From the NCBI GenBank assembly GCA_021849125.1, contig JAJZTG010000001.1:96422-160421 (forward strand): a DNA stretch of 64,000 bases, read 5' to 3'. Below the pieces are notes generated by a model. It was not told the DNA's origin. It worked only from the letters and a program-made list of their open reading frames with translations, and did no database searches. Position numbers and translations under genes: made by a program. Of this stretch, positions 2,178 to 46,784 are shown in pieces; positions within the stretch are counted from its first letter, which is position 1; the number at the start of each line of letters is the position of its first letter. The DNA comes from a bacterium (GTDB taxonomy: Bacteria > Patescibacteriota > Minisyncoccia > Phycocordibacterales > Phycocordibacteraceae).

Positions 2178-2756
2178 CTATTGGGTGATCTTGGTTGGTT
2201 TCAAAAACCGCTCAGCAATGTATTCAAGGTAATTGCGAACAAGATAGAAATCCTGCATTGGGTTAAGTTCAAGTTTTGTCGCATCGCCTGCATCCGACCA
2301 GATCACAATATCAATTTCACCGTTGAGACTTAGTGCCTGAGGTTCACATGCATTTGAGGGCCTGTCGTGTTTGAAGGTTGGATGTTTTACAATGTCGTTT
2401 GCAATGTCAACGACCCGCTTAATGTTTTCAGCGTAATAAGCGTCCACTGCTTTGGCGTCGCTCAGCATCTTGCGTAAGATACTTAACGCCTCAAGCATAG
2501 TACGCAACAATGCATACATAGCGAATGCGTATGACCATGATTTGCGCATGTAATACATCACCTCGCTGTTAGTCGGGTTTTCTTTTTTAAAAAACTCGGT
2601 GTAGCTGTCGCTAAGCGACATCATCTGGTGATACGCGTAGAGGTAGTACGAAAGTGCCACATCGGCCGTATGTTTTGATTTTTGGTCTGGGAATTTGTAT
2701 CCAGCGTAAAACTCTAGAAATTGCGGGACGCTATATTTTTGGACGAGATCTTCCAT
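2178..2756 (-). CDS. hypothetical protein; second gene of the AT-rich two-gene operon
   Basis: 192-aa ORF tightly coupled to 2759..3265, with low GC and no motif I can recognise. It is divergently oriented to the KAP NTPase, with 77 bp between the two start codons. Confidence 0.5.
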   Translation of the reverse strand: MEDLVQKYSVPQFLEFYAGYKFPDQKSKHTADVALSYYLYAYHQMMSLSDSYTEFFKKENPTNSEVMYYMRKSWSYAFAMYALLRTMLEALSILRKMLSDAKAVDAYYAENIKRVVDIANDIVKHPTFKHDRPSNACEPQALSLNGEIDIVIWSDAGDATKLELNPMQDFYLVRNYLEYIAERFLKPTKITQ

Positions 2757-2758
2757 AT

Positions 2759-3265
2759 CTATCGCACCCCAATCACTTTCCTAAATTCGTTTGCCACGTG
2801 TTCTCGTTTTGGAGGAAAATCGTTTTTGTATCTCGTCACCAATTCACTCCATTTCTTTGTATCGGGACGCTCGCCGTCCAATCGTGCCTCGTACGCAAAC
2901 TCGTGGAACATAGTTTTATATTCCTCGGCGAGCTTGGCCATATCATCAGACAAACTTTTGGAGAGATAATGCCGGTTCCGTAGATAGTGGCCAATAAAAT
3001 AGTTGAAGGCCTCACTTGCTTTTACACGCCGTCGCATTTCCGCCTCTTTTGAGGCATCATCCTGGATCGGCGAAACAAGTTCACCCACGATCCGATCCAA
3101 ACGCTCCATTCTTTTCATCATTTCGTCGAGTACTTCAGCACGTTTTGCGTACAATCCAGATTCTTTGATTGATCGAACTTGCGTACGATAGTTCATCAAG
3201 CCATTTATTAGAGCGGCAGCTGCGCCAGACCCGAGCACAGATATTGAGAATGTGACCCAGTCCAT
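2759..3265 (-). CDS. hypothetical membrane-anchored protein; first gene of an AT-rich two-gene operon
   Basis: 168 aa with an N-terminal hydrophobic helix (WVTFSISVLGSGAAAALINGLM) followed by a charged, helical soluble part. GC is visibly lower than in the neighbouring genes. It lies 2 nt upstream of the next minus-strand ORF. Confidence 0.5.
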   Translation of the reverse strand: MDWVTFSISVLGSGAAAALINGLMNYRTQVRSIKESGLYAKRAEVLDEMMKRMERLDRIVGELVSPIQDDASKEAEMRRRVKASEAFNYFIGHYLRNRHYLSKSLSDDMAKLAEEYKTMFHEFAYEARLDGERPDTKKWSELVTRYKNDFPPKREHVANEFRKVIGVR

Positions 3266-3342
3266 GGGTGATATTTTACCTCATTCTAAAGCGACTCCCC
3301 CACGGGCTGTCATTCAAGTGAACAAAGGTCTAAAATACAGTT

Positions 3343-6300
3343 GTGGAATCACCACTGCACATCCAGAAGTATCATGCCCGCCTCAAGGAAGTGTTTACTG
3401 ATTTGAGAGTGATTACTGCGAATCTTTCGGTGCTAATCAAAGCGGTTTTTCTTGGCATTCTGGTCGCTGAGATTTGGCGTCTCTCGCTCGTTGCCGCAGG
3501 AAAGGCTAATGGATGGATATTTTCAAACAACTATGAGTCCTGGGCTATTGGCATTTGCATAGCGGGAATCGCGATACTAGTCTCGTATCTTATAGCAAGA
3601 GACGTTCCTGCAGATTTCAAGAAGATTGTCGCGAGCGGCCGTATAGACGTATTTATTGCGATAAGTCTTGGTGCGTGGCTGAGCGTCGCGTGGAGCGGCT
3701 TCTTTTCAGATTGGTATACGGCTTTTGTGGCGTCGTCGAGCATTCCCCAGCTACTGACGATAATCTCCGGGCCGTTCATTCTGGCCGTTCTTATTGTGGC
3801 GAGATCTGTCGTTCGGAGGGAGAAGAAGGTTGACTCATCCTTTATAGTTGATCTCGAGCTAAACGACAAAGAGAAAGACTTGCTTGGTTTTGGCGATAAG
3901 GCGAGCAATTTCGCAGAGCGTGTCTTCAACGGCGGTTCGCCAGACAGCTTCGTATTCGGTGTCGATGCTCCATGGGGGATCGGTAAGTCGACCTTCATAA
4001 ACTTTTGCCAACAGTACTGGAGGGAGAAACATGGACACGAGATTGTAGTCTACAAATTCAGCCCGCTCCAGCACTCCGGAACAAACGACCTGCTCGACGT
4101 GTTTATTGATGGGCTCATTCAGGCAATCCAAAAGGATTCTTTTGTACCCGAGATTAAACCGCTCATCTCAAGCTACTCTCGCCTACTGAAAGAGGTCAGT
4201 CGATTTTCAATATTCGGCCTTGCTTTGCCCAGTTTCTCTACCAACTACACCGCCAAGGATGCATGCGATGATCTGACTGTTGTCCTTCGAAATTTCCATA
4301 AGAAAATAATAATCGTCGTCGACGATTTAGATCGAATCAGTTTCGATGAAATGAAGAGTATTCTCTTCGTGATCAGGAAAAGCTTCATGTTTCCGAACAT
4401 CTCATATGTCATCTGTTATGACACCGACAACATCAGCGCTCTCGAAGCAGAGACCCAGGACACGGAAAAAATAAGCGAGTTCCTAGAGAAATTCGTCAAT
4501 ATAAAAATCAGCCTCTATCTTGATCGGAAGGACTTGGTTAAGTACATCTCAGAAAATATCAGTGAGGCTCTTTCTGCGAGCACAGTGGATCCTATCTTGG
4601 TAGGACAAGCAATCGGAGGATTGAAGGATATATATAACTCGTCGATCTATCACAAGTACCTTCCATTCATCGGTGACGTCAGGAAGCTCAAGCGTCTCAT
4701 CAATACAGTGACGTTGTTCGAGCTCCAAACAACTGATTTCAAGAACACGGATTTCGACAAACGTGACTTGATCAACCTGTTGCTTATCTATATCCATTAT
4801 CCCAATGTCTTTCGAAAAATATACGACACCGAAACCGATGGAGGACGCGGATTCTTCTCTCTGGTAATTCCACACGAGGATGGATATCCAGACGAAGAGC
4901 CGGGTGCCCCTCGAAGAAACTCCCTTAGCGATTCGGAGTATAAAAATTCAAAATACTATCACGAGTATCTCAAAGAGCTCCCTGAAGGCGGTAGGCAACG
5001 CTTCCTATTGGACCAAGTGTTCAATGTAGACGTTAGATTGAAAGGCACTGGCGATAATCATTTCGCTACCCGAGACAGGTACGCTCAGATCGACAATGTA
5101 CCCGAGGACGTGCGGACATCTCTGGCCTGTTTCAATGGGGGCTGGACGAATGGCAGGAATCTAGAGACTTATCTTGACCTGATTGTTAAGCTCGCGAAAC
5201 CCGAAGAGAGTGGGCAGCATCGCTTCTACACTCGCTGGAAGGACGAGATCATTTCCGGCTCGAAAACCCTTAAAGAGGTATTTACTGACGCCAGATTTGC
5301 ATATGATAAGAGTGAAGCGCCGCGCGAGAAGCTTTGGAGAATCTTCGTCAATAATGCTAGAGACCTTAAAAAGGCGACGGCCGCATCCGTGATTTCGCAT
5401 CTGATTGAAAGTATGCCCGATTACTCGTTGCTTGAGATAAAGGAGATTGGTCTGGGTCTACGCCATAGCTTGGATTACTTTCTAACCCGTCTACTGAACG
5501 ACGCGGGCTGGACTGATCCGGCCGGTAAGCATTCCAATAACACGGAGAAACACATAAAAGAGATCGCCGAATGGGTGTTTGGTGAGAGCGCGCATTCAGA
5601 CAAAAGCATTCTCGACAGACTCTCTGCGCCCGAGCGTGGTGTATTAGGCCTATACGATTTGATGGTATTTCGACTTTCGTGCAGCGCGGATCGTGGAGGC
5701 GATATCTTTGATCTTACTCGGGCGGTCGCTCAGCACGCCAACCCCAACGCGCCCATTCAAGGCGATACACGCGACATTGCTCGTGAGGAAATGCGAGAGA
5801 TGTCTCAGAAAGTCTTCCAGATATTTAAGACACAGTACATTGATCCTAAAATAAATATCTTTGATAAAGTTGCAGCGCTGCAGATTTCTGATTTCGCCGG
5901 GAAGTACGCTACTTATCTGGCACAGAAAGTCACCGACGGAATTGTCCAACAATCTGACATAGACAAGAAAGTTGTTGAAATGAAGACTCGCATCACGAGC
6001 TTCATTCTCTACCAACTTGGGAATAACGAGATCAGTCATGGGGTTGGGTGCGGGTATTACGATCCATCTGGAACGAAGGATGGGCACGGAATCAGGAAGC
6101 TCATGAATGAATATCTCTTTGGGCTATGCTTTGACCCGTCGAAACCAGAGAACGCACAGTATTTGGTGGACTATCTGTTTAGGAATTTCGCTAATGCAAT
6201 CGCATCAGCGCGCGAGGATGGTCGAAAATACATACCGAGCATCAACGAGTTTACGAAAGTCCTCGACAAGGTTGGTCTCGCTGGCTATTGGCAGAACCAC

Positions 6301-6465
6301 GGGGCAACTATCAAGGCCCTGAAACTAGAGGATCTTGAAAAGATCGTCTTTGTCGGGAATGACGAAGCTTCGTATCGGGAATATGTGCCCTTGGTTTTTA
6401 AGGTGCTAGATGACAATCTGGCTGAGGTGCAAGCGGCGGCGGCAAAGGTTCTTGCGGCACAGTAA
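3343..6465 (+). CDS. KAP-family P-loop NTPase with four N-terminal transmembrane helices and a ~500-aa C-terminal extension
   Basis: Walker A FGVDAPWGIGKSTFIN and the KAP-type Walker B IIIVVDDLDRISF. Four hydrophobic segments fall in the first ~165 aa. The C-terminus is alpha-helical and ends in an alanine-rich stretch that looks HEAT-like. Confidence 0.8.
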   Translation: MESPLHIQKYHARLKEVFTDLRVITANLSVLIKAVFLGILVAEIWRLSLVAAGKANGWIFSNNYESWAIGICIAGIAILVSYLIARDVPADFKKIVASGRIDVFIAISLGAWLSVAWSGFFSDWYTAFVASSSIPQLLTIISGPFILAVLIVARSVVRREKKVDSSFIVDLELNDKEKDLLGFGDKASNFAERVFNGGSPDSFVFGVDAPWGIGKSTFINFCQQYWREKHGHEIVVYKFSPLQHSGTNDLLDVFIDGLIQAIQKDSFVPEIKPLISSYSRLLKEVSRFSIFGLALPSFSTNYTAKDACDDLTVVLRNFHKKIIIVVDDLDRISFDEMKSILFVIRKSFMFPNISYVICYDTDNISALEAETQDTEKISEFLEKFVNIKISLYLDRKDLVKYISENISEALSASTVDPILVGQAIGGLKDIYNSSIYHKYLPFIGDVRKLKRLINTVTLFELQTTDFKNTDFDKRDLINLLLIYIHYPNVFRKIYDTETDGGRGFFSLVIPHEDGYPDEEPGAPRRNSLSDSEYKNSKYYHEYLKELPEGGRQRFLLDQVFNVDVRLKGTGDNHFATRDRYAQIDNVPEDVRTSLACFNGGWTNGRNLETYLDLIVKLAKPEESGQHRFYTRWKDEIISGSKTLKEVFTDARFAYDKSEAPREKLWRIFVNNARDLKKATAASVISHLIESMPDYSLLEIKEIGLGLRHSLDYFLTRLLNDAGWTDPAGKHSNNTEKHIKEIAEWVFGESAHSDKSILDRLSAPERGVLGLYDLMVFRLSCSADRGGDIFDLTRAVAQHANPNAPIQGDTRDIAREEMREMSQKVFQIFKTQYIDPKINIFDKVAALQISDFAGKYATYLAQKVTDGIVQQSDIDKKVVEMKTRITSFILYQLGNNEISHGVGCGYYDPSGTKDGHGIRKLMNEYLFGLCFDPSKPENAQYLVDYLFRNFANAIASAREDGRKYIPSINEFTKVLDKVGLAGYWQNHGATIKALKLEDLEKIVFVGNDEASYREYVPLVFKVLDDNLAEVQAAAAKVLAAQ

Positions 6466-6500: not shown

Positions 6501-6664
6501 AGGTGCAGTAAACTCTCTCTATGCATAAAACTCACGGTCGAAAAGCTAGCAAATAAGCCATTGCGCAAAAGTTTTAGGGCAAAATCATAATTCCGTCGTA
6601 CACGTATCGTACTTTTGCCAAGATTGTGGAATACATTTGCTCGCTTCTGTGCGATTGTCTATAC

Positions 6665-7297
6665 ATGAGCGCAAAAGATAAACGAGAGCTGGATCGGATG
6701 CTTCGAGGTGTTGGCAGAGCCATGGATCAGGCGAGAATCGACGGTCCGTTTATTAAGGCAGAAGAGAACAAGGCACTCGGTATTGCGTATACGATCAAGG
6801 ATGTGTATGTCGGAGAGGTCGCCATCAGACGTAGTGCGAACGCATGGTGGATGAATGATCAAAAAGTCGCCTTGATCATAGAGGCCATGAAAGAGGGCCA
6901 TACTGTCAACACGGCGTGTCTGTATGCTGAAATCTCCCGTGCTCAATGGGAGTACTTCAATAAAATCCATCCAGAATTTGAGGCGGTCATCGAGATGTGC
7001 GAGCAATATCAGCTCGTACGTGCTATGGACACGGTGAACCGCAACCTTAACGATCCCAAGATGGCCAGGTGGCTTCTTGAGCGACGGCACCCTAAATTCA
7101 AAACACGGCTCACGCTCGACGACGTCCTCGGTCGACAGATCCCGAGTTTGATTACGAATCTCGCGTTTCAGGACGAAAACGAAACCCCAGAGGCGATTGC
7201 AGCAAAGCTTACACAACTCGCAGAAACGATTCTTTCGGAAAACGAGGCGCGCAAGCGTGGGCTTGTAGTGCCGAATTCAAAAGCACTTTCCGATTAG
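6665..7297 (+). CDS. phage terminase small subunit-like HTH protein (Terminase_2-like)
   Basis: The C-terminal region contains MARWLLERRHPKFKTR, which resembles the W-L-L-E-R-R motif of phage TerS (P27-family) proteins as I remember it. No large terminase is nearby. The start is placed at the internal ATG at 6665. Confidence 0.45.
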   Translation: MSAKDKRELDRMLRGVGRAMDQARIDGPFIKAEENKALGIAYTIKDVYVGEVAIRRSANAWWMNDQKVALIIEAMKEGHTVNTACLYAEISRAQWEYFNKIHPEFEAVIEMCEQYQLVRAMDTVNRNLNDPKMARWLLERRHPKFKTRLTLDDVLGRQIPSLITNLAFQDENETPEAIAAKLTQLAETILSENEARKRGLVVPNSKALSD

Positions 7298-7309: not shown

Positions 7310-7870
7310 TTACTTAACTACCACCCATTCGCTCGCGGACCAGCCAGCTTCCCCGACCTTGTCTGAGTCGGCTTCGGCCGCCCCCTTGGTGACGCGCACT
7401 TTCGTCAGAGTCATGCTTGTGTCGATGACCCTTACCTCCGAGCCGTTATGGACACAGAACAGCCCTTCTTTGGTCAGGTCTAGAATGCCCAGGTAGTCCT
7501 TGGCAAGAAGCGCCTTTGTGTATTCGTCGTACACGGCCTTCGTAGGCGCGAGGCAAAGCGCTTGGGTTGGGTCATCATTGCCTGGAAGTCGAAGATACGC
7601 ATCTTGCCCGAGCGTCCGCGCTTCGCTTGGTCCAGCGTTTCTTTGTGTCGTAGCTGTAGCGTTCTCGGTGGCGCTGTTGATGGAACTGAGTACTGCTCCG
7701 AACAAGAAGAGGCCGACAAAGAGGCTGAAAACAGGATGGCGATGTGGCCAGCTTCGCAAATCAGATTGGCAATAAGGGCACTTCTTTGCAGCGGAGGGAA
7801 TATCCTTACTGCAATGTGGGCACGATTTTGTCTCTGCAGAGTTCTGAGTCATGGGAATTATGCGATCCAA
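7310..7870 (-). CDS. membrane protein with an N-terminal zinc ribbon (CPHC...CPYC) and a single TM helix
   Basis: Two CxxC pairs near the N-terminus, then the hydrophobic stretch VFSLFVGLFLFGAVL, then a soluble C-terminal domain. Confidence 0.5.
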   Translation of the reverse strand: MDRIIPMTQNSAETKSCPHCSKDIPSAAKKCPYCQSDLRSWPHRHPVFSLFVGLFLFGAVLSSINSATENATATTQRNAGPSEARTLGQDAYLRLPGNDDPTQALCLAPTKAVYDEYTKALLAKDYLGILDLTKEGLFCVHNGSEVRVIDTSMTLTKVRVTKGAAEADSDKVGEAGWSASEWVVVK

Positions 7871-9964: not shown

Positions 9965-10161
9965 TTAACTTTATGGAAACAAAAAACGAAAAAGGACGGG
10001 TGCTATCAGCAAGTGAACGACTGCGAGAAGACTTGGAGTATGCAATCGGCAGATTCGTCGAAAAACTAAAGAGAGAGATTGGAGTTCGTTAAGACTTGCA
10101 TTCCCGTCCCACGAAGGTACTATCCCGACCCCCGGGGATTACGGGACATAAAAACGGACCT

Positions 10162-11733
10162 ATGGAAAAAGCCATCATCTACACACGCGTTTCGTCGAAA
10201 GAGCAGGAAGAAACCGGCTACTCGCTCGATGCGCAGGAGCAGTTCCTAAAGGAATACGCTCAAAAGCTTGGGCTCCCGGTTGCCAAAATCTACAAGGTCA
10301 CCGAGTCCGCGAGTAAATGGCAACTGCGCAAGACGCTCGACGCCATGCTCGAATACGCTGTTGAGCACGATGTGAAAGTTATCCTTGGTGAGAAGATCGA
10401 TCGACTGACCCGCAGTCTCAAGGACGCCGCAATCATCGATGACTGGGTGCACGACGAGGACGGGCGTCAGGTGCACTTCGTCAAAGAACACTTCATCGTC
10501 AGCAAGGAAACGCGTGCGCACGATAACTTCGTGTGGGACATGAAGGTCGCTGTGGCGCGCTTCTACACAAACAATCTCTCGGAGGAAGTTAAGAAGGGTC
10601 AGAAGCAGAAGATTGCCGAGGGATGGTTGCCGACCAAGCCACCACTCGGTTACAAGACCGTCGGCGAAAAAGGAAAGAAGATCCACATGATCGATGACGA
10701 CAAGGCTCCGTTCGTGCGACGTATGTTCGAGATGTATTCGAGCGGTAACTACTCTGTCATCTCTCTTGCGGATGCAATGTATCGCGACGGGCTTCGGAAT
10801 CGCGCCAACAAGAAGGTTGGCAAGAGCCGCATGTACGACATGCTGCGCGATCCGTTCTACTACGGCGCGATGCAATGGAAGGGTCAGGTGTTTGCAGCCA
10901 AGCACGAGCCACTCATTTCCAAAGAACTCTTCGACCGCGTACAGGCGCTCTTAGCGCGACCGTTCAATCAACTCCAAATGCAGAAACACCTACCGGTGTT
11001 CAAGGCGAAGATGCGCTGTGGCGCGTGCGGCGGCTCGGTAACGTGGGAGACGCACAAGGGCTACTGGTACGGCCACTGCAACGGTTACAAGCGCAAGGAC
11101 ATGAAGGCAAAATGCGAAAGCCGCCACATCTTCCTGCGTCAGGACAGGATCGAGGAACTCATGTTCCCGTTGTTCGAAAAAGCTACACCCAAAGGCGCAC
11201 ATGTGATCGAAGTGCTGAAGGAGGCATTGAAGGAAAGCCACGCGGAAGAAGTCGACCGATTCGATGCGCAGCTCACAAGTCTCAACCTGACGATCGACCG
11301 ATCTCAACGACGACTCGAAACGATCTACGAGGACAAGCTAGATGGCAAGATTTCGGCGGAAATGTATGAAAGCTTGGCCAAGCGCTATTCCAGCGAGAAA
11401 GAGGCTGCTACGGGCGAAATTTCGCGCCTGAACCGGGGTAACAAGCGCTACTACGAGGCTGGGTATGCCATTCACGAGCTCGCTCTCCAGGCAGCGGCCA
11501 TTTACAGCGACGAAAAGACGACGAACGAGGATCGTCGGATGCTCCTGAGCTATGTTTTTTCGAACATCGAGCTAAACGGCGAAGAACCTAAGTTTTTCTA
11601 CACGCCAGCGTTCGATTTCGTGGTGAATTGGGTACCCAAGCTAAATTTGATTTTAGAACTCGAAAATAGCTTGGAAACTAAAAGACGAAATGGCGCTTTC
11701 GCGCCATCTCATCCTGTTCTGCTCCGCGGGTAG
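10162..11733 (+). CDS. large serine recombinase (integrase)
   Basis: N-terminal resolvase catalytic domain with IIYTRVSSKEQ (catalytic Ser). A recombinase domain follows, then a zinc ribbon CGACGG...HCNGYKRK and a coiled-coil C-terminus. The stop codon at 11731-11733 overlaps the tRNA 3' end. Confidence 0.9.
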   Translation: MEKAIIYTRVSSKEQEETGYSLDAQEQFLKEYAQKLGLPVAKIYKVTESASKWQLRKTLDAMLEYAVEHDVKVILGEKIDRLTRSLKDAAIIDDWVHDEDGRQVHFVKEHFIVSKETRAHDNFVWDMKVAVARFYTNNLSEEVKKGQKQKIAEGWLPTKPPLGYKTVGEKGKKIHMIDDDKAPFVRRMFEMYSSGNYSVISLADAMYRDGLRNRANKKVGKSRMYDMLRDPFYYGAMQWKGQVFAAKHEPLISKELFDRVQALLARPFNQLQMQKHLPVFKAKMRCGACGGSVTWETHKGYWYGHCNGYKRKDMKAKCESRHIFLRQDRIEELMFPLFEKATPKGAHVIEVLKEALKESHAEEVDRFDAQLTSLNLTIDRSQRRLETIYEDKLDGKISAEMYESLAKRYSSEKEAATGEISRLNRGNKRYYEAGYAIHELALQAAAIYSDEKTTNEDRRMLLSYVFSNIELNGEEPKFFYTPAFDFVVNWVPKLNLILELENSLETKRRNGAFAPSHPVLLRG

Positions 11734-11759: not shown

Positions 11760-12363
11760 CACGTTCTCTCTTGTTACCAAGAGCGTGGACTATATCATCA
11801 CCCGTATCTGCGTCATGCAGATCGAGGGTGCGAGGCGCTTCCCCAGCCCCAGTTTTGGACTCAAAACTCGTTTGAATTCAAAACTGGAGCTGGGTACTCC
11901 CTTGCGGGATAGTCTCTAGACCTTCTCATCTTCCGATGAGCTTGGCTCGGGATTGCCCACAGCATTTCCTCTGTTAGGGGTTCCCCGAATTCACCTCGTG
12001 TTCGACCTAAATCTCTTTAGGAAGCTGCGTAATGCCTGCGTGCAATTCGCGGTGACAGTTCGCACAAACAAGAACGCATTTATCGATTTCTTCTTTGATC
12101 TTTTCCCAAGATCTCGTGAGACCTTTCGTCGAGAGACCGAAGTCTTTCTGGCTCGGATCTTTGTGATGAAAATCGAGTGCTCCTGAATAACGACTGTATC
12201 CGCACATAACGCACTTCCCGCCCTTGTATTCGCGCGCCATTTCTCGAAGCTTCTTTCGACGCTCCGAAACGGCTTTACGCAAGTACTCGGCACGGTCGGC
12301 ATAAGTCCTTTTCTCTTTTGGCATACTCATTTAAGTATACCACTCGGGTTTTGGACTTGAACC
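11760..12363 (-). mobile_element. group I self-splicing intron carrying an HNH homing endonuclease ORF
   Basis: R element AGAGACUA (plus-strand 11910-11919), S element GAUAUAGUCC (11788-11797), and a P9 hairpin CUCUUG-GUAA-CAAGAG just before the 3' splice site. The 5' exon ends in U and the intron ends in G. The HNH ORF lies in the same orientation, about 35 nt inside the intron. Confidence 0.65.
12007..12330 (-). CDS. HNH homing endonuclease (intron-encoded)
   Basis: 107 aa with CVMCGY ... DFHHKD ... LVCANCHRELH, the classic HNH Cys/His arrangement. Confidence 0.8.
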   Translation of the reverse strand: MSMPKEKRTYADRAEYLRKAVSERRKKLREMAREYKGGKCVMCGYSRYSGALDFHHKDPSQKDFGLSTKGLTRSWEKIKEEIDKCVLVCANCHRELHAGITQLPKEI

Positions 12364-12936: not shown

Positions 12937-13347
12937 TCAGGCCTTCTGATGCTTCGCACAACGACAACCGAAAGGCTTGATGTGCTCGTCGAAATATTCT
13001 TCCCCGTAATCGTAGGTAAGCTCTTCGCCCGGCTTGATGCCCTTGATCGCATCGATCCAGACGCGGCCCTTTACGATATTCGGTTCGCAGTTGGGCTTGC
13101 AAGAATGATTGATGTAGCGAGCAAAGTTGTCGCGCTGGGTGCCGTCGATCGTCTTCCGGCTGTTTACCTCGAAGAGGTACTTGCTCTTGCTCGTGTATTC
13201 CTCTTCCTTGGAAATCTCGCGGCCGAAGTACTCGATGATCCGCTCCCCTTTCTTGAATGCGCGCGTCGCGAAAAGACCCAAACCTGCGCTTGAGCGCCCC
13301 ACGCGAAGCCCCTCCGGACACACCGGTTTCTTTTTCGTATCTGCCAT
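12937..13347 (-). CDS. SET-domain protein (putative protein-lysine methyltransferase)
   Basis: RYINHSCKPNC and GEELTYDYG motifs, plus a C-terminal Cys cluster (post-SET-like). Confidence 0.8.
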   Translation of the reverse strand: MADTKKKPVCPEGLRVGRSSAGLGLFATRAFKKGERIIEYFGREISKEEEYTSKSKYLFEVNSRKTIDGTQRDNFARYINHSCKPNCEPNIVKGRVWIDAIKGIKPGEELTYDYGEEYFDEHIKPFGCRCAKHQKA

Positions 13348-17740: not shown

Positions 17741-17857
17741 ATGGACCCTGTTTTTCTTATCACGATCATCGCTTTCCTCGTCTCCGTATTCGTCGGTGGC
17801 GCGCTAGTCGGCGCACTTGCAGCCCATTTCTACGAAAAGAAGCACCTTAATCGCTAA
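17741..17857 (+). CDS. possible 38-aa single-TM peptide downstream of the P-type ATPase
   Basis: MDPVFLITIIAFLVSVFVGGALVGALAAHFYEKKHLNR. There is no clear Shine-Dalgarno sequence, and it overlaps the helicase stop on the other strand. Confidence 0.25.
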   Translation: MDPVFLITIIAFLVSVFVGGALVGALAAHFYEKKHLNR

Positions 17858-19509
17858 CGCGGAAGCCGCGCGAGACGGATCTGCTCGAATGAATACTTTC
17901 CGCCGAGCGCGCGGAAGACCGGCGTGAGGCGATCATTCGTGTCAGCGGCGAGCGCTTCGCGGATCTCATCCGCTGCATCGCGCGGAAGGAGATGAGCGTA
18001 GTCGGCATTTGCGAGCTTCCCTATCTCGGCGAGCTCCTCAAGATGCTTCACGATCGTCGAGGGCGTAAGGCCGCGCGCTTTCGCTGCCGCTTCGAGCGTC
18101 TTTGCGTCGCGCACGGCCTGCAGCGTTTCTGCGAGGCGTCCCGGCATCCCGGTCTCGCGCTTGTCCGGTGACGCCACCTCGCTCTCCTTCACCCAGGCAC
18201 CGCCCATCGCTTTTACGAACTTCTTTTGGAGCGCTTCGCGCTCCTCATCCTGCATGTCGGCAAACGTTTCCTGCACGGCGTCGCTTGCCGAACGGAAGTC
18301 GCGATCTTTCTTCAGGATCTCCGGGTGCACTTCGAGCGCTCGCTCGTTTAGCCCGAGGAGGTGCAGCCCCGAGAGCCGACGCACGCGACTGAGCGCCACG
18401 TACCCCTGCCCGTACTCGAACGCACGCGAGAGGTCGATGACCGCCGCGTCCATGCTCATGCCCTGGCTCTTGTGTACGGTCATCGCATAGGCGAGCCGAA
18501 GCGGCACCTGCGAGATGCTCGCCTTCACCTTTCCCTGCTCCTCAAGCTGCCACTCCATGGGCTCAGCCGTGACGCGGAATCCTTCCTTGGTCTCGACGAT
18601 GGGCAGCCCTTCGCTATCAAAGGCGATCACCGTACCGAGCGTACCGTTCACAAACTTCGCTTGCGGCGAATTCTTCGTGAACATCACACGCGCACCTTCT
18701 TTAAGCTCAAGTGACTCCGGCGAGAGACAGCCACGCTTCAATCCTTCGACGAGCGTATCCTTGCCTTTAGAATTCATGCGGAAAAGCATCGCCTTGCCGG
18801 GAAGCTTTTCGAGCGCGTCAGCATTGATACGATCGACGTCGGCATTGTGCGAGTAAAGCTTCGGCGCGTCTTCGGGCGGCGCTTCGGTTTTTACCCGGCG
18901 GAACGCGAGATGCTCCTCGTGCACGGCACCGACCGTACCCGTGCGGATTGCTGAGAGGACCTCGAGGAAATCCATGTCGTCCTGGCGATGCTGCTCGGTC
19001 AGGTAGCAGATGAGCGGGTTCAACTCGCGCCAGACGAGCGAAGCGTACGCGAACACGGCCTCTCCTTCACGCGAGATTGGCGGCAGCTGGAAGAAATCAC
19101 CCACGAGGATGACGGTGAGACCGCCGAACGGCCGCTCGCTCCGGCGCACTTCGCGACAAACCGCGTCAGCCATCTCAAGGGTCGCCGCCGAGAGCATCGA
19201 CACCTCTTCGATGATGAGCACTTTCGCCTTGTTGATGCGACGTGCAACGTGCTCTTTGGTGGCGATGCGGTCGATGTCGGCCGGAGAAAGTGACGAACTC
19301 ACGCCGATACCGCTCCAGGAGTGAAGCGTCATCCCGCCCACATGCGTCGCCGCGATGCCGGTCGCCGCGGTGATCGACGGCTCGATACCGGAAGCGCGCA
19401 ACCAATCGACGAAGGCGTTTACCGTATGCGTCTTGCCGCTTCCCGGCTCTCCGGTGAGAAAGACGTTCGCGCCGGTCTTGAGGACCGTGAGAGCTTCTCC
19501 TTGAGTCAT
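17854..19509 (-). CDS. SF1B ATP-dependent DNA helicase (RecD/Pif1-like) with a C-terminal helical extension
   Basis: Walker A LTGEPGSGKTH, Walker B LIIEEVSM and motif V TVHKSQGMS. The start is taken at MTQGEALTVL, which abuts the upstream ORF. Confidence 0.7.
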   Translation of the reverse strand: MTQGEALTVLKTGANVFLTGEPGSGKTHTVNAFVDWLRASGIEPSITAATGIAATHVGGMTLHSWSGIGVSSSLSPADIDRIATKEHVARRINKAKVLIIEEVSMLSAATLEMADAVCREVRRSERPFGGLTVILVGDFFQLPPISREGEAVFAYASLVWRELNPLICYLTEQHRQDDMDFLEVLSAIRTGTVGAVHEEHLAFRRVKTEAPPEDAPKLYSHNADVDRINADALEKLPGKAMLFRMNSKGKDTLVEGLKRGCLSPESLELKEGARVMFTKNSPQAKFVNGTLGTVIAFDSEGLPIVETKEGFRVTAEPMEWQLEEQGKVKASISQVPLRLAYAMTVHKSQGMSMDAAVIDLSRAFEYGQGYVALSRVRRLSGLHLLGLNERALEVHPEILKKDRDFRSASDAVQETFADMQDEEREALQKKFVKAMGGAWVKESEVASPDKRETGMPGRLAETLQAVRDAKTLEAAAKARGLTPSTIVKHLEELAEIGKLANADYAHLLPRDAADEIREALAADTNDRLTPVFRALGGKYSFEQIRLARLPR

Positions 19510-19994
19510 CCCCCGATTGTAGCAGCTCTCGAAAGCAGACGGACAGCAATGGCCGAAACGATGAACGCGAAGAGGAAGACGAGCATGCCGGTAAAGCAGG
19601 GGGTGGTCCATGGAGCTGCTCCGGGAGTGCAGCTCACCGAGGCACCGCCGATGAGCTTGTAGTACTGCATCGTCTCAAGCGTGACGACTGAAAGCGCGAA
19701 TACCGAACAGCCAGCGAGGAAATTGCGCAGATACCGCTCGCTGCGCGTGCTTGCGCTCTGCCAAAGCCGTACCGACCAGAAGACCGCGGCAACAAAGCCG
19801 AGTGAGCCGAAGAAACACGGCGTGAGAAACGGGTTCGGTACCGTACAACCCTCGATACGAAAGATGGTTCCATAGAGCGCGTTGAAATTCGCGAATTGCG
19901 AAAAGAGGTTCGTCCACGCGAACACCATCCCTCCGAAAAGAAGAGCTACCTGTAAGAAAAGAAGTGAGCGTATACGTGTGGTCATATCATTCAT
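19506..19994 (-). CDS. polytopic membrane protein with two conserved Cys pairs (DsbB/VKOR-like?)
   Basis: Four hydrophobic segments. C-x9-C and C-x10-C pairs sit in predicted loops (CTVPNPFLTPC and CTPGAAPWTTPC). Confidence 0.45.
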   Translation of the reverse strand: MNDMTTRIRSLLFLQVALLFGGMVFAWTNLFSQFANFNALYGTIFRIEGCTVPNPFLTPCFFGSLGFVAAVFWSVRLWQSASTRSERYLRNFLAGCSVFALSVVTLETMQYYKLIGGASVSCTPGAAPWTTPCFTGMLVFLFAFIVSAIAVRLLSRAATIGG

Positions 19995-39861: not shown

Positions 39862-42800
39862 TTAGAGCGCGCGCGGCGTACGCGGCGCAAACGAGGTCGT
39901 CTCGGTCGGTTCCGGCACCGGGCGTTCCGCTTGCAGCTTCTCGATCGACGAGAACTTCTTGCTGCCAGCAAAACCGGTACCTGCCGGGATGAGGCGGCCG
40001 AGGATGACGTTCTCCTTGAGACCGCGGAGACGATCCATCGATCCACGCAAGGATGCGTTGATGAGGATCTTCGTGGTCTGCTCGAAGGATGCGGCCGAGA
40101 GGAACGAGCGGCGCGAGAGCGCGCTCTCCTTGATACCGAGCACGATCTCCTTGGCATGCGGCGGCATCTTGCCTGCGTCTTCCGCTTCCTTCACTGCCTT
40201 CGCGAACTCCCAATCCTCGACGACGTCGCCCACCGAGTATTCGGTGTCGCCCGTCTCAGTGATCTTCACGCGCGAGAACATCTGCTTCACGACCACTTCG
40301 AGGTGCTTGCGCGAGACCGGCGCACCCTGAAGCTCGTAGATCTTCGATGCTTCGGTAATGATGTACTCCTGCGTCGCAGCGCGACCGGCGTACTCGAAGA
40401 GATCGTCGAGATCGGCCGAACCATCCGTGAGGATCTGGCCCTTCACCACCGTGTCGCCCGCCTTTACCAAAGGTACGCGCGGGTACGGGGCGAGGTATTC
40501 GTAAGCCGAACCGTCCTTCTTACCCTGCCCTGCTTCCGGAGCGACGACGAGCACCTTCTCGCGGCCTTCATCCTTGATCTCGACGACGACGCCGTCTGAC
40601 TTGGAGATGACCGCCGGGTTCTTCGGCGAGCGCTTTTCGAAGACTTCTTCCACGCGCGGGAGACCGCTCGTGATATCGCCGCCGACCGATGCCACGCCGC
40701 CGGCATGGAACGTACGCATGGTGAGCTGGGTACCCGGCTCGCCGATAGCCTGTGCGGCGACCGTACCGACTGCTTCGCCGAGGTCCACGAGCTCGCGCGA
40801 GGTGAGGTCCATACCGTAGCAGGTCTGGCAGATACCGTAGCGCGTCTCGCATGACATCGGGGAACGTGCGACCACCGAGGTGACCGACTCCGTCGCATCG
40901 AGCGCTTCAGCGTCTGCGATCGAGAGGTAGTGCCCCTTCTTGAAGAGCGTCACGCTGTCCTTGTCTTTCACGTCTTCCGCGAGCACGCGGCCGCGGAGCG
41001 CTTCGGCGTAGTTTACCTGGACGCCGGACGCCGAGATGCGGTTGATCTTCACGCCGCGGGAGGTACCGCAGTCCTTCTCCGTGATGATGGAGTCCTGCGC
41101 GACGTCGAAGAGGCGGCGCGTGAGGTAGCCGGCCTTCGCGGTACCGAGCGCGGTATCAGCGAGACCTTTGCGCGAACCGTGGGTGGACATGAAGTACTCG
41201 ATCGGATTCAAACCCTCGGCCATCGAGGAGATGATCGGCACCTCGATCGTCTGACCGGACGTGTCCTGGATGAGACCTTTCATGCCGACCATCTGCGAGA
41301 GGTTACCCATCGAACCGCGAGCGCCGGACTTGATGATGTCGTAGACCGGACTCATCGAGTCGAGGGTCGCTTCGATCACCTTTTCCACATCCTGCTTAGC
41401 GCCCTGCCAGGTCTCGATCGCCATGCGGCGCTTCTCTTCCGCAGAGAGGAGCCCTTCGCGGAAATCGCCTTCGATCTTCGCGACTTTCTCCTGTGCGTCG
41501 GCAATGATGCGCTTCTTGTCCTCAGAGACCTCGATGTCGCCGATCGACCAAGTGATGCCGGAGCGGGTCGCATACGTAAAGCCGAAGTGCTTCACGCGGT
41601 TGATGATGCCCGGGACCGCGTCGATACCATAGCGGCTGATGCTGTCGTTCACGATGCGGCCGAGCGCCTTCTTGGTGACCGCTTCGTTCATGAACGGATA
41701 ATCCGTCGGGAGCACCGTATTGAAGAGAAGGCGGCCGACCGTAGTCTCGAAGGTCTTGCCTTCGAACTGCTCGTACTTGACCTTCTCCGCAACCGGAAGC
41801 ACGTGGATCTTCGCGCGCATGTCGATCGCGCCGTAGTCGAACGCGAGGATCGCGGCGTTCGGGGATGCGAAGTACTCGCCTTCACCCTTAGCGCCCGGGA
41901 TGTCGCGCGTGAGCCAGTAGATACCGAGCGCGATGTCGTGGCTGGTCGCGACGACCGGCGCGCCGGAACCCGGCTTAAGGACGTTCTTGTTGGCGCTCAT
42001 GATGTTTGCCGCCTCCCACTGTGCCTCTTCCGAGAGCGGGACGTGCACGGCCATCTGGTCGCCGTCGAAGTCCGCGTTGAAGGCCGGGCAGACGAGCGGG
42101 TGGAGCTGGATCGCGTCGCCTTCGATGAGCTGCGGGCGGAATGCCTGGATACCCTGGCGGTGAAGCGTCGGGGCGCGGTTCAAGAGGACGTACTTGCCCT
42201 GGATCGCTTCTTCGAGGATCTCCCACACCTCCGGTACGCCATCTTCGATGAGACGTCCGGCACCGCGGATGTTGAACGCGAGCTCGCGCTCGAGGAGTCC
42301 GGCGATGACGAACGGACGGAAGAGCTCGAGGGCCATATGCTTCGGCAGACCGCACTCGTCGAGCTCGAGGTCCGGACCGACGACGATTACGGAACGTCCC
42401 GAGTAGTCGACGCGCTTACCGAGAAGGTTCTGGCGGAAGTAGCCCTGCTTACCCTTGAGGTAATCAGCGAGCGACTTCAAGGGGCGACGCTGTGCGGCCG
42501 TCATAGCACCTGCCGAAGCGCCGCTCTTACGGATTGAGTTGTCGAGCAAAGCATCGACGGCTTCCTGAAGGATGCGCTTCTCGTTACGAAGGATGACCTC
42601 TGGCGCGTGGATGTCGATGAGCTTCTTCAAGCGGTTGTTGCGGTTGATGACGCGACGATAGAGGTCGTTCACGTCGGAGGTCGCATGGCGACCGCCTTCA
42701 AGCGCGACCATCGGGCGGAGTGCCGGCGGGATGACCGGGATACGCGTGAGGAACATCCATTCCGGACGGACCTCCGAGCCGATCATGGCTGCGATGAGCG

Positions 42801-43575
42801 AGAGGCGCTTCGCGAGCTTCTCGCGCTCAGCGGCACCGGCCGTCTGATAGCGCTCTTCAAGCGACTTCTCGAGCGCCTTCAAGTCGAGCGCACGGAAGAG
42901 GTCGTAAATGGCCTCGGCGCCGATCTTCGCTTCGAAGAGACCGCCGTACTTCACCGAGAAGCGGTGGTACTCGAGCTCGTCGAGGATACGGCCGATGACG
43001 AGACCTTCGATCTCGTTCTTCGTGGTGGTCATCTTCTCCTTCAAGGCGTCGCGTTCCTTGTCGGAATTGAGCGACTTGTACTTGCTCTTGTACTCGCTAT
43101 CGAGCTCGGCAAGAAGACGCTTCTTCTCGTCTTCCGCGATCTTGGTCACGATGTAGCCGGCGAAGTAGACGACCTTCTCGAGTTCGGCTGCGGACACGCC
43201 GAGGAGGAGTGCCATGCGGCTCGGGACCGAGCGGAGGAACCAGATGTGCGCGACCGGAGTGCAGAGCTCGATGTGGCCCATGCGCTCGCGGCGGACGATC
43301 GAGCGCGTGATCTCGACGCCACACTTGTCACAGACGATGCCCTTGTAGCGGATGCCCTTGTACTTGCCACAGTAACACTCGTAGTCCTTTTCCGGACCGA
43401 AGATCTTCTCGTCGAAAAGACCGTGCTTCTCCGAGCGCTGGGTGCGGTAGTTGATCGTCTCCGGCTTCGTGACCTCTCCTGAAGACCAGGCGAGGATGCG
43501 CTCCGGCGAAGCGAGCGTCAGGCGTAGCGCGTTCCAGGTGTCGCGCGAAGGAAGTTTGCGGGGGGTGAATGCCAT
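39862..43575 (-). CDS. rpoC: DNA-directed RNA polymerase subunit beta'
   Basis: NADFDGDQMAVH catalytic motif, an N-terminal zinc-binding Cys cluster, and a full-length 1237-aa protein. Confidence 0.97.
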   Translation of the reverse strand: MAFTPRKLPSRDTWNALRLTLASPERILAWSSGEVTKPETINYRTQRSEKHGLFDEKIFGPEKDYECYCGKYKGIRYKGIVCDKCGVEITRSIVRRERMGHIELCTPVAHIWFLRSVPSRMALLLGVSAAELEKVVYFAGYIVTKIAEDEKKRLLAELDSEYKSKYKSLNSDKERDALKEKMTTTKNEIEGLVIGRILDELEYHRFSVKYGGLFEAKIGAEAIYDLFRALDLKALEKSLEERYQTAGAAEREKLAKRLSLIAAMIGSEVRPEWMFLTRIPVIPPALRPMVALEGGRHATSDVNDLYRRVINRNNRLKKLIDIHAPEVILRNEKRILQEAVDALLDNSIRKSGASAGAMTAAQRRPLKSLADYLKGKQGYFRQNLLGKRVDYSGRSVIVVGPDLELDECGLPKHMALELFRPFVIAGLLERELAFNIRGAGRLIEDGVPEVWEILEEAIQGKYVLLNRAPTLHRQGIQAFRPQLIEGDAIQLHPLVCPAFNADFDGDQMAVHVPLSEEAQWEAANIMSANKNVLKPGSGAPVVATSHDIALGIYWLTRDIPGAKGEGEYFASPNAAILAFDYGAIDMRAKIHVLPVAEKVKYEQFEGKTFETTVGRLLFNTVLPTDYPFMNEAVTKKALGRIVNDSISRYGIDAVPGIINRVKHFGFTYATRSGITWSIGDIEVSEDKKRIIADAQEKVAKIEGDFREGLLSAEEKRRMAIETWQGAKQDVEKVIEATLDSMSPVYDIIKSGARGSMGNLSQMVGMKGLIQDTSGQTIEVPIISSMAEGLNPIEYFMSTHGSRKGLADTALGTAKAGYLTRRLFDVAQDSIITEKDCGTSRGVKINRISASGVQVNYAEALRGRVLAEDVKDKDSVTLFKKGHYLSIADAEALDATESVTSVVARSPMSCETRYGICQTCYGMDLTSRELVDLGEAVGTVAAQAIGEPGTQLTMRTFHAGGVASVGGDITSGLPRVEEVFEKRSPKNPAVISKSDGVVVEIKDEGREKVLVVAPEAGQGKKDGSAYEYLAPYPRVPLVKAGDTVVKGQILTDGSADLDDLFEYAGRAATQEYIITEASKIYELQGAPVSRKHLEVVVKQMFSRVKITETGDTEYSVGDVVEDWEFAKAVKEAEDAGKMPPHAKEIVLGIKESALSRRSFLSAASFEQTTKILINASLRGSMDRLRGLKENVILGRLIPAGTGFAGSKKFSSIEKLQAERPVPEPTETTSFAPRTPRAL

Positions 43576-43601
43576 AGTGATTTTAGAAAATGAATAATGC
43601 G

Positions 43602-46784
<3,183 letters not shown>

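What the first reader, a model, noticed from the sequence alone, without database searches (positions are those of the whole stretch)
2178..3265. Low-GC two-gene operon of unknown function between an R-M system and a KAP NTPase
The two tightly coupled genes are a 168-aa TM-anchored helical protein and a 192-aa soluble protein. Their base composition is sharply different from the flanking R-M genes. They are transcribed divergently from the KAP NTPase gene with only 77 bp between start codons, so they probably share a regulatory region. Defence genes cluster in islands, which makes this pair a candidate uncharacterised defence or abortive-infection module, or a toxin-antitoxin pair.
Basis: inference. 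Interest (0 to 1): 0.6.

Follow-up and report, generated by a model that had tools for sequence, protein, structure and literature searches.

The report
Unpaired orphan genes in defence island
The two tightly coupled genes are real and sit in an acquired defence island, but they are not a conserved pair: elsewhere the membrane-anchored one usually sits inside type I restriction-modification operons just before the specificity gene, and the soluble one is a rare stand-alone orphan.

Summary
Gene A (2759-3265, minus strand, 168 aa) has an N-terminal membrane helix and a four-helix bundle. Gene B (2178-2756, minus strand, 192 aa) is soluble. A 2-nt spacer separates them. They lie between an XhoI-type R-M pair and a PifA-like KAP NTPase, 77 bp from the KAP start codon.

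The whole left 12-14 kb of the window is a 46-53% GC island in a ~59% GC chromosome, and it carries a large serine recombinase.

Across 12 other independent A contexts and about 10 B contexts, the two genes co-occur only in a near-identical copy of this same island.

Seven of the 12 A contexts are type I R-M operons. In six of them A sits -1 to 3 nt upstream of hsdS, across three HsdM lineages. The other A contexts are next to an AAA_15 ATPase or toxin-antitoxin genes.

Best reading: this is a lineage-specific operon of two independently mobile accessory genes. A is probably a membrane-acting, R-M-associated defence component. B's function is unresolved. Interest is moderate.

The parts
2759..3265 (-). 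Gene A: 168-aa protein with an N-terminal transmembrane helix and a cytoplasmic four-helix bundle. It belongs to a rare unnamed family that is usually embedded in type I R-M operons directly upstream of hsdS.
   Evidence: ORF. AF2 model has pLDDT 84, pTM 0.77, with helices at 3-36, 40-64, 73-100, 103-127 and 136-165. The family has 41 clusters. No Pfam, NCBIfam or PADLOC match.
3185..3253 (-). Coding region for the predicted transmembrane helix of A (about residues 5-27). It has conserved small and polar residues: S9, G12, S13, G14, N21, N25.
   Evidence: Hydropathy and conservation analysis and alignments A1 and A4. Residues 1-64 are the most conserved part of the protein.
2178..2756 (-). Gene B: 192-aa soluble protein made of a helical bundle, a three-stranded sheet and a C-terminal helix. 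It belongs to a very small orphan family.
2379..2399 (-). Coding region for the most conserved motif of B, N120-D-I-V-K-H125-P126. With invariant R85 (2502-2504) this is a candidate active or ligand-binding site.
   Evidence: Alignments A2 and A3. Y37, R85, H125 and P126 are invariant in 35 sequences down to 16% identity.
3266..3342 (.). 77-bp divergent intergenic region between A and the KAP NTPase gene.
   Evidence: Sequence. Only weak promoter-like matches, at chance level, and weak inverted repeats. Shared regulation is neither shown nor excluded.
3343..6465 (+). KAP-family P-loop NTPase (PifA-like), 1040 aa, with about 4 N-terminal hydrophobic segments. Probably a self-contained defence gene.
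   Evidence: Pfam KAP_NTPase 1e-38 and PADLOC PifA 1e-27. Hydrophobic segments within residues 21-158. The Burkholderia relative stands alone. A KAP gene alone gave strong defence in E. faecalis (PMC12632615).
14..2067 (+). Type II R-M pair: methyltransferase (14-1330, cut by the window edge) and XhoI-family endonuclease (1330-2067). It is convergent with B.
10096..11733 (+). Large serine recombinase near the right end of the low-GC island. It is the likely integrase of the element carrying the defence cargo.
   Evidence: Pfam Resolvase, Recombinase and Zn_ribbon_recom. GC profile.

Best explanation
A and B are two independently mobile, uncharacterised accessory genes. In this lineage only, they have been joined into one translationally coupled operon. 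The operon lies inside a horizontally acquired, serine-recombinase-borne defence island.

Gene A (shown). It encodes an N-terminally membrane-anchored protein with a cytoplasmic four-helix bundle. Its usual home is a type I R-M operon, between hsdM and hsdS, coupled to hsdS by a spacer of -1 to 3 nt. It also occurs after an AAA_15/AAA_21 ATPase and beside toxin-antitoxin genes.

Gene A (inferred). A is a modular membrane-acting defence component. It is co-expressed with a cytoplasmic partner, which is usually the HsdS-containing complex and here is B. My preferred mechanism is a latent membrane-perturbing (abortive-infection type) effector, held in check or triggered by its partner. This is analogous to PrrC being masked by the EcoprrI complex. 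A passive membrane tether for the partner is the next option.

Gene B. It is a soluble protein with a conserved polar cluster (Y37, Q44, Y81, R85, N120, H125, D169, E178) on a helical bundle that most resembles HEPN toxins. It may be a nuclease-like enzyme or a ligand sensor, but this is weakly supported.

KAP NTPase. It is a separate, self-sufficient defence gene.
For: Pairing is not conserved.
- HMM searches of all 39 loci find both genes only in L031, the same island.

A contexts: 7 of 12 independent contexts are type I operons.
- L003: M-A-S-RVT-R.
- L009-13: M-A-x-S-NYN-R.
- L019, L021 and L022.
- L032: M-Fic-A-S-DUF4145-R.
- L035/36: RhuM-M-A-S-Abi_C-R.
- The A-to-hsdS spacer is -1 to 3 nt in 6 of the 7.

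A moves independently of the R-M frame.
- The operons belong to three HsdM lineages that are 31-39% identical, yet A is 42-54% identical across them.
- Within one lineage, L022 versus L035 has M 92% and R 96% identical but A 41% and S 33%.

Non-R-M contexts of A.
- After an AAA_15/AAA_21 ATPase.
- After a Panacea-type TA.
- After HigBA.

The TM helix and first cytoplasmic helix are the most conserved part of A, which argues against a passive anchor.

Literature: genes embedded in type I R-M, BREX and DISARM loci are frequently defence genes (Payne et al., bioRxiv 10.1101/2024.01.29.577857). PrrC is masked by its type IC enzyme (PMC3874165; PMC12707154).

Island nature: GC profile and serine recombinase.

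Against: - No experiment or interaction prediction links A to HsdS, to B or to membranes. The mechanism is inferred from gene order and sequence features only.
- A has only one hydrophobic helix, and in the window copy it is marginal (KD 1.55).
- The A bundle gives only generic four-helix-bundle matches.
- Five of the 12 A contexts lack R-M, and some contain no obvious defence genes (L004 near polysaccharide genes; L038 among hypotheticals).
- B lacks the Rx4-6H motif. It has no Foldseek hit and no profile hit to HEPN, DUF4145 or Abi_C.
- Most B contexts are housekeeping or unannotated.
- The tight A-B coupling (2 nt) could still reflect a real, newly evolved functional pair.
Confidence: 0.55

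Rival explanations
1. A-B is a genuine two-component defence or abortive-infection module. A is the membrane sensor or anchor and B is a HEPN-like nuclease effector (or the roles are reversed). The module is new to this lineage and may cooperate with the divergent KAP NTPase.
For: - 2-nt spacer with the same coupling geometry A shows with hsdS.
- Defence-island setting.
- A pairs with different cytoplasmic partners elsewhere.
Against: - The pair is seen only in one island population.
- No KAP gene occurs in any other A or B locus.
- B has no canonical HEPN motif and no PADLOC hit.
Confidence: 0.2
2. A is a fourth, membrane-anchoring subunit of a subset of type I R-M enzymes. It tethers the HsdS-containing complex at the inner face of the membrane, where foreign DNA enters. 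The window copy is a remnant separated from its R-M operon, and B is unrelated cargo.
For: - A sits directly upstream of hsdS in three type I lineages with a -1 to 3 nt spacer.
- It is swapped together with hsdS between near-identical M/R frames.
- It has no catalytic motif.
- From my own memory, not retrieved here: EcoKI was reported to be membrane-associated (Holubova et al., BBRC 2000 and 2004).
Against: - A occurs without any R-M in 5 of 12 contexts and in the window.
- The TM helix itself is highly conserved, with invariant polar residues, which is more than a passive anchor needs.
- There is no type I gene anywhere in the 64-kb window.
Confidence: 0.15
3. A and/or B are not defence genes. 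They are ordinary variable accessory genes of small-genome (CPR-like) bacteria, such as a membrane or stress protein and a small enzyme. They accumulate in islands and operon gaps by hitch-hiking.
For: - B neighbours are mostly housekeeping or unannotated.
- A in L004 lies beside polysaccharide genes.
- Neither matches any PADLOC model.
Against: - 7 of 12 A contexts are inside R-M operons, alongside Fic, Abi_C, DUF4145, NYN, RT and RhuM genes.
- Other A contexts are next to TA or AAA_15 genes.
- B appears in two serine-recombinase islands with R-M (window and L007) and beside GmrSD/HNH ORFs (L029).
Confidence: 0.1

Closest known systems
PrrC / EcoprrI (anticodon nuclease embedded in a type IC R-M operon)
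   Same: A gene unrelated to restriction is embedded in a type I R-M operon and co-expressed with the Hsd subunits. In the PrrC paradigm the R-M complex masks a latent suicide effector (PMC3874165; PMC12707154). Five of the seven A-bearing operons are type IC-like, with an EcoR124_C domain in HsdR in the four whose hsdR was recovered.
   Different: PrrC is a soluble ABC-ATPase plus HEPN nuclease located between hsdS and hsdR. A is a 168-aa single-pass membrane protein with no ATPase or nuclease motif, located between hsdM and hsdS. No homology. In the window A is not in an R-M operon at all.
Defence candidates found by 'guilt by embedding' (HEC/PDC families; Payne et al. 2024, bioRxiv 10.1101/2024.01.29.577857)
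   Same: The logic is the same: genes nested in type I R-M, BREX, DISARM or Hma operons, in the same orientation, are enriched for defence functions. A fits this pattern in 7 operons.
   Different: A and B match none of the PADLOC-DB v2 models, including the PDC candidates. The family is almost confined to uncultured CPR-type genomes that were outside that RefSeq-based survey.
HEPN toxins (HepT/SO_3166, MNT-HEPN type VII TA; AbiV-like Abi proteins)
PifA-type KAP NTPase defence genes
   Same: The neighbouring gene (3343-6465) is a member. Such genes can act alone (PMC12632615).
   Different: A and B are not part of it. No KAP gene accompanies A or B elsewhere, and the nearest plasmid-borne KAP relative has no A/B-like neighbours.
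Small single-pass membrane Abi/Sie proteins (e.g. lactococcal AbiP, Sie2009; cited from memory, not tested)
   Same: The architecture is similar: an N-terminal TM helix plus a ~130-150 aa soluble domain, with no enzymatic motif, encoded in mobile defence contexts.
   Different: No homology was tested or known. A is absent from both viral collections searched, whereas Sie proteins are typically prophage-encoded.

Membership tests
Toxin-antitoxin pair (A-B) | The two genes are conserved as an adjacent pair across lineages | tested here: not met
   HMMs of both families over 39 loci find co-occurrence only in L031, the same island. tblastn agrees.
HEPN superfamily (B) | Four-helix up-down bundle superposable on HEPN structures | tested here: inconclusive
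HEPN superfamily (B) | Conserved Rx4-6H catalytic motif | tested here: not met
   The conserved motif is N120-D-I-V-K-H125-P126. The invariant Arg (R85) lies on a different helix.
HEPN superfamily (B) | Sequence or profile similarity to a HEPN family | tested here: not met
   No HEPN Pfam hit in 35 members. No PDB sequence hit. hhalign against the DUF4145 and Abi_C neighbours gives probability <=1.2%.
Pfam DUF5677 (B) | Score above the gathering threshold (27.1 bits), shared by family members | tested here: not met
   16.2 bits, E 0.011, found only in the window protein and its 99% twin. Treated as chance.
Type I R-M-embedded accessory gene (A) | Located inside an hsdM-hsdS-hsdR operon on the same strand | tested here: not met
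   Met by homologues in 7 of 12 contexts. The window copy is not in a type I operon, and no hsd genes exist in the 64-kb window.
PrrC-like anticodon nuclease (A) | ABC-type ATPase domain plus C-terminal HEPN nuclease | tested here: not met
   A is 168 aa with one TM helix and a four-helix bundle, and has no P-loop.
KAP NTPase-linked module (A-B with KAP) | Co-occurrence of A or B with a KAP NTPase in other genomes | tested here: not met
   tblastn with the KAP protein finds nothing in the 30 A and B loci held at those calls (L001-L030). The Burkholderia KAP relative has no such neighbours.
Known or candidate defence systems in PADLOC-DB v2 | HMM match to a PADLOC model | tested here: not met
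   No hit for A or B at E<=0.1.
Periplasmic four-helix-bundle sensor domains (4HB_MCP / TorS / NarQ type) (A) | Bundle flanked by two TM helices and facing the periplasm, with sequence match to these families | tested here: not met
Phage-encoded proteins (superinfection exclusion, holin, structural) | Homologues in phage genomes or PHROG families | tested here: not met
   Nothing in IMG/VR or in INPHARED phages. PHROG hits are scattered, each in 1-2 members with E>=0.0016.
Membrane-perturbing Abi effector (A) | Oligomerisation in the membrane and infection-triggered depolarisation or lysis | not testable with these tools
   Only indirect evidence: a conserved TM helix with small and polar residues and a conserved juxtamembrane helix.

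The most novel reading that the evidence does not exclude
Gene A defines an undescribed, modular membrane component of prokaryotic immunity. In a subset of type I R-M systems, mainly in CPR/Patescibacteria, it would act as a fourth, membrane-embedded subunit coupled to HsdS. It would be either a PrrC-like latent membrane effector that fires when restriction is blocked, or a tether placing restriction at the DNA entry site. The same module would have been re-wired to other cytoplasmic partners: an AAA_15 ATPase, and in this window the HEPN-like protein B.
Probability: 0.2. Interest if true: 0.7.

Novelty: new member of a known kind. Interest (0 to 1): 0.4.

Why it matters
As a supposed new two-gene defence system, the finding does not hold up, which saves an experiment built on the wrong unit.

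It does expose an unnamed protein family, A, with a striking and position-specific association with type I R-M operons. A lies directly before hsdS, in three R-M lineages, and is exchanged together with hsdS. The genomes concerned (CPR bacteria) have few recognised defences.

If A acts with the restriction complex, it would add a membrane-level component to type I R-M. That component could be a guard-type effector or a tether. The hypothesis is testable.

B adds a very rare, confidently folded orphan with a conserved polar site.

Both families are small, and the evidence is purely genomic, so the interest is moderate.

Tried and rejected
- **Identifying the source.** Near-identity DNA searches of the island against E. 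coli genomes, plasmids and phages found nothing. Exact-sequence lookup gave only an unnamed 176-kb MAG contig.
- **Family libraries for A and B.** Pfam, NCBIfam, PADLOC and PHROGs gave nothing above threshold.
- **DUF5677 lead for B.** Rejected, because only the window protein and its twin hit it. The one tested DUF5677 gene in PMC12632615 showed no defence.
- **PDB sequence-profile searches for both families.** Only chance hits.
- **Foldseek against PDB for B.** Nothing significant.
- **AFDB50 fold search.** Not available on the machine.
- **A versus B homology.** None.
- **B versus R-M-embedded DUF4145 and Abi_C proteins.** None.
- **Neighbours of A and B compared with each other.** No shared partner family.
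- **Viral collections.** Neither family is present. One scan with the diverse B alignment failed for lack of a conserved stretch.
- **Shared A/KAP regulatory element.** Only chance-level promoter matches and weak inverted repeats.
- **Trace of hsdS at the A-B junction.** None beyond the same spacer geometry.
- **Literature on membrane-located type I enzymes.** Not found in the held library. It is cited from memory only.

Full report
**1. Observation**

A is at 2759-3265 (168 aa) and B at 2178-2756 (192 aa). The TAG stop of A is followed by two bases and then the ATG of B, with no terminator-like site between them.

Upstream and divergent, 77 bp away (3266-3342), a 1040-aa KAP-family NTPase gene starts. 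It matches Pfam KAP_NTPase at 1e-38 and PADLOC PifA at 1e-27. Downstream and convergent lies an XhoI-family endonuclease (Pfam 2e-86) with its methyltransferase.

Both genes have full-length homologues at 22-75% identity in many metagenomes, so they are real genes under selection.

A has one N-terminal hydrophobic helix. The Kyte-Doolittle 19-residue maximum has a family median of 1.93, always at residues ~6-24, and is 1.55 in the window copy. An acidic N-terminus and a basic stretch after the helix predict N-out/C-in. B has no hydrophobic segment.

The composition claim is only partly right. A is 46.5% GC and B 43.7%, below the R-M genes (53.4% and 51.1%), but the same as the KAP gene (47.3%). 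The real discontinuity is between the whole left 12-14 kb (46-53%) and the rest of the window (56-63%).

The rest of the window is core chromosome: rpoB, rpoC, dnaG, dnaE, hisS and thrS. The low-GC block contains a large serine recombinase (10096-11733) and a small-terminase-like ORF (6626-7297). It is therefore an integrated mobile island carrying defence cargo.

**2. Is the pair conserved?**

No. I collected 39 loci around homologues of A and B. I then searched their six-frame ORFs with profile HMMs of both families. Only L031 contains both genes. L031 is the same island, with one SNP in 1380 bp. tblastn gave the same answer and found no KAP NTPase in any of the 30 A and B loci held at those calls (L001-L030). 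The nearest plasmid-borne relative of the KAP protein (Burkholderia glumae, 31% identity over 91%) is a stand-alone gene beside an integrase.

**3. Gene A**

*Family and structure*
- The family is small: 41 clusters at 90% identity among 5.8 billion proteins, and 6 of 185,579 species genomes. It is mostly from CPR lineages: Paceibacterota, Saccharibacteria, Parcubacteria and Magasanikbacteria.
- Distant members occur in a Pseudomonas genome and on Haloferax mediterranei plasmid pHM100.
- It matches no Pfam, NCBIfam, PADLOC or PHROG family, and no PDB sequence.

*Gene contexts (12 independent)*

Seven contexts are type I R-M operons:

| Locus | Gene order |
|---|---|
| L003 | HsdM-A-HsdS-RT-HsdR |
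| L009-13 | HsdM-A-x-HsdS-NYN-HsdR |
| L019 | HsdM-A-HsdS |
| L021 | HsdM...Fic...A-HsdS-x-HsdR |
| L022 | HsdM-A-HsdS-x-x-HsdR |
| L032 | HsdM-Fic-A-HsdS-DUF4145-DUF8370/1-HsdR |
| L035/36 | RhuM-HsdM-A-HsdS-Abi_C-x-HsdR |

In six of the seven, the A-to-hsdS spacer is -1 to 3 nt. This is the same geometry as the A-to-B junction in the window.

The remaining five contexts are:
- after an AAA_15/AAA_21 ATPase;
- after a Panacea-type TA;
- after HigBA;
- before an unrelated 130-aa ORF in a Saccharibacteria genome;
- among hypothetical genes on pHM100.

*A moves independently of the R-M frame*
- The operons fall into three HsdM lineages that are 31-39% identical to each other, while A is 42-54% identical across them.
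- Inside one lineage, L022 and L035 share 92% (HsdM) and 96% (HsdR) identity but only 41% (A) and 33% (HsdS).
- So A is not simply inherited with one operon. It has reached the same junction in different type I families, and it is exchanged together with hsdS.

*Conservation pattern*

Residues 1-64 (the TM helix and first cytoplasmic helix) are the most conserved part of A. They include invariant M1-D2-W3, S13 and N25, and the KRAEVL motif that persists in the most distant members.

**4. Gene B**

*Family and structure*
- The family is tiny: 32 representatives at E<=1e-3 among 1.84 billion 50%-identity cluster representatives. All members are single-domain and about 190 aa.
- The AF2 model is confident (pLDDT 90, pTM 0.86). 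It has three long helices, a three-stranded sheet and a C-terminal helix.
- The invariant residues are Y37, R85, H125 and P126, with N120, Q44, Y81, D169 and E178 nearly so. They suggest a functional site, but there is no Rx4-6H motif.
- The weak DUF5677 hit is not shared by other members and is treated as chance.

*Gene contexts*

B has no constant neighbour:
- an AAA_33 kinase-like gene and housekeeping genes (L001);
- a chromosome/island junction with UDG, a large serine recombinase and a type I R-M (L007);
- a peptidase and a NYN gene (L008/L024);
- a LAGLIDADG ORF (L027);
- for a distant member, EcoRI-like methylase, GmrSD_N and HNH ORFs (L029).

Neither A nor B occurs in IMG/VR or INPHARED phages.

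**5. Mechanism**

*Shown:* gene order, coupling, membrane-anchor propensity, fold models, the island nature of the region, and the lack of conserved A-B pairing.

*Inferred:* A is a modular, membrane-acting component used together with a cytoplasmic partner.
- Embedding in type I R-M operons alongside Fic, Abi_C, DUF4145, NYN, RT and RhuM genes fits the 'guilt by embedding' pattern, in which such genes are often defence genes (Payne et al., bioRxiv 10.1101/2024.01.29.577857).
- It also recalls PrrC, which is masked by its type IC enzyme and released when restriction is inhibited (PMC3874165; PMC12707154).
- I favour a latent membrane-perturbing effector, for three reasons. The TM segment is itself strongly conserved with polar and small residues. 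A also follows an AAA_15 ATPase, a common sensor in two-gene systems. A also exists on its own.
- A passive tether for the HsdS-containing complex is the main alternative.

In the window, A has B instead of hsdS downstream. B may be its local partner, or simply adjacent cargo.

The KAP NTPase is best regarded as an independent single-gene defence. A KAP gene alone protected E. faecalis (PMC12632615).

**6. Comparison and novelty**

Neither protein can be filed under a known family. The HEPN, DUF5677, PrrC, TA, PADLOC and phage-protein membership tests were not met or were inconclusive.

What is new is the A family and its position-specific link to hsdS. The window's A-B operon is a lineage-specific arrangement. 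I rate it a new member of a known kind: defence-island or R-M-embedded accessory genes of unknown mechanism.

**7. Verdict**

- The pair, TA and KAP-module interpretation is not supported.
- The defence association is supported for A only.
- Interest is 0.4.
- The most novel reading still open is that A is a membrane-embedded fourth component or guard effector of type I R-M, re-wired here to B. I give it about 0.2 probability. It would be of high interest if true.

Noticed in passing
window 1-~14000: The whole left end of the window is a 46-53% GC island in a ~59% GC core chromosome. The island holds the R-M pair, A-B and the KAP NTPase. It also holds a small-terminase-like ORF (6626-7297, phrog_4102 9e-11), a zinc-ribbon/TM protein (7310-7870) and a large serine recombinase (10096-11733). 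Its left boundary lies outside the window.
   Followed up: partly
window 12937-13347 (-) and 12007-12330 (-): A 136-aa bacterial SET-domain protein (Pfam SET 2.9e-25) and an HNH-like small ORF (CxxC...HH...CxxCH) lie just right of the serine recombinase, at the GC transition.
   Followed up: partly
L022 vs L035 (type I R-M operons carrying A): HsdM is 92% identical and HsdR 96%, but A is only 41% and HsdS 33%. The A-hsdS segment appears to be exchanged as a cassette inside an otherwise conserved operon.
   Followed up: partly
L003 10007-11353: A reverse transcriptase (RVT_1) gene is embedded between hsdS and hsdR of a type I operon that also carries A. Other A-bearing operons embed Fic, DUF4145, Abi_C, NYN, RhuM and DUF8370/8371 genes.
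   Followed up: no
L038 8956-9543 (Haloferax mediterranei pHM100, WP_004060530.1): This is a distant A-family member in a cultured archaeon (26% identity, E 8e-9). It keeps the KRAEV, W139 and FR motifs and is annotated as hypothetical. It could serve as a tractable model.
   Followed up: partly
L007 336-914 and neighbours: A 70%-identical B homologue sits at a junction. On one side is a trmD-like fragment. On the other is a block with UDG, a large serine recombinase and a type I R-M. This is the same kind of serine-recombinase-borne island as in the window.
   Followed up: partly
window 39862-46784 and 50995-53202: The core genes are compact: RpoB 1060 aa, RpoC 1237 aa, and an SMC-like protein of 735 aa. 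The closest A and B homologues come from CPR genomes. Together this suggests the host is a small-genome (possibly CPR-type) bacterium with unusually high GC. Taxonomy was not established.
   Followed up: no
window 17854-19611 (-): There is a PIF1-like helicase with a C-terminal HTH_40 domain in the core region.
   Followed up: no
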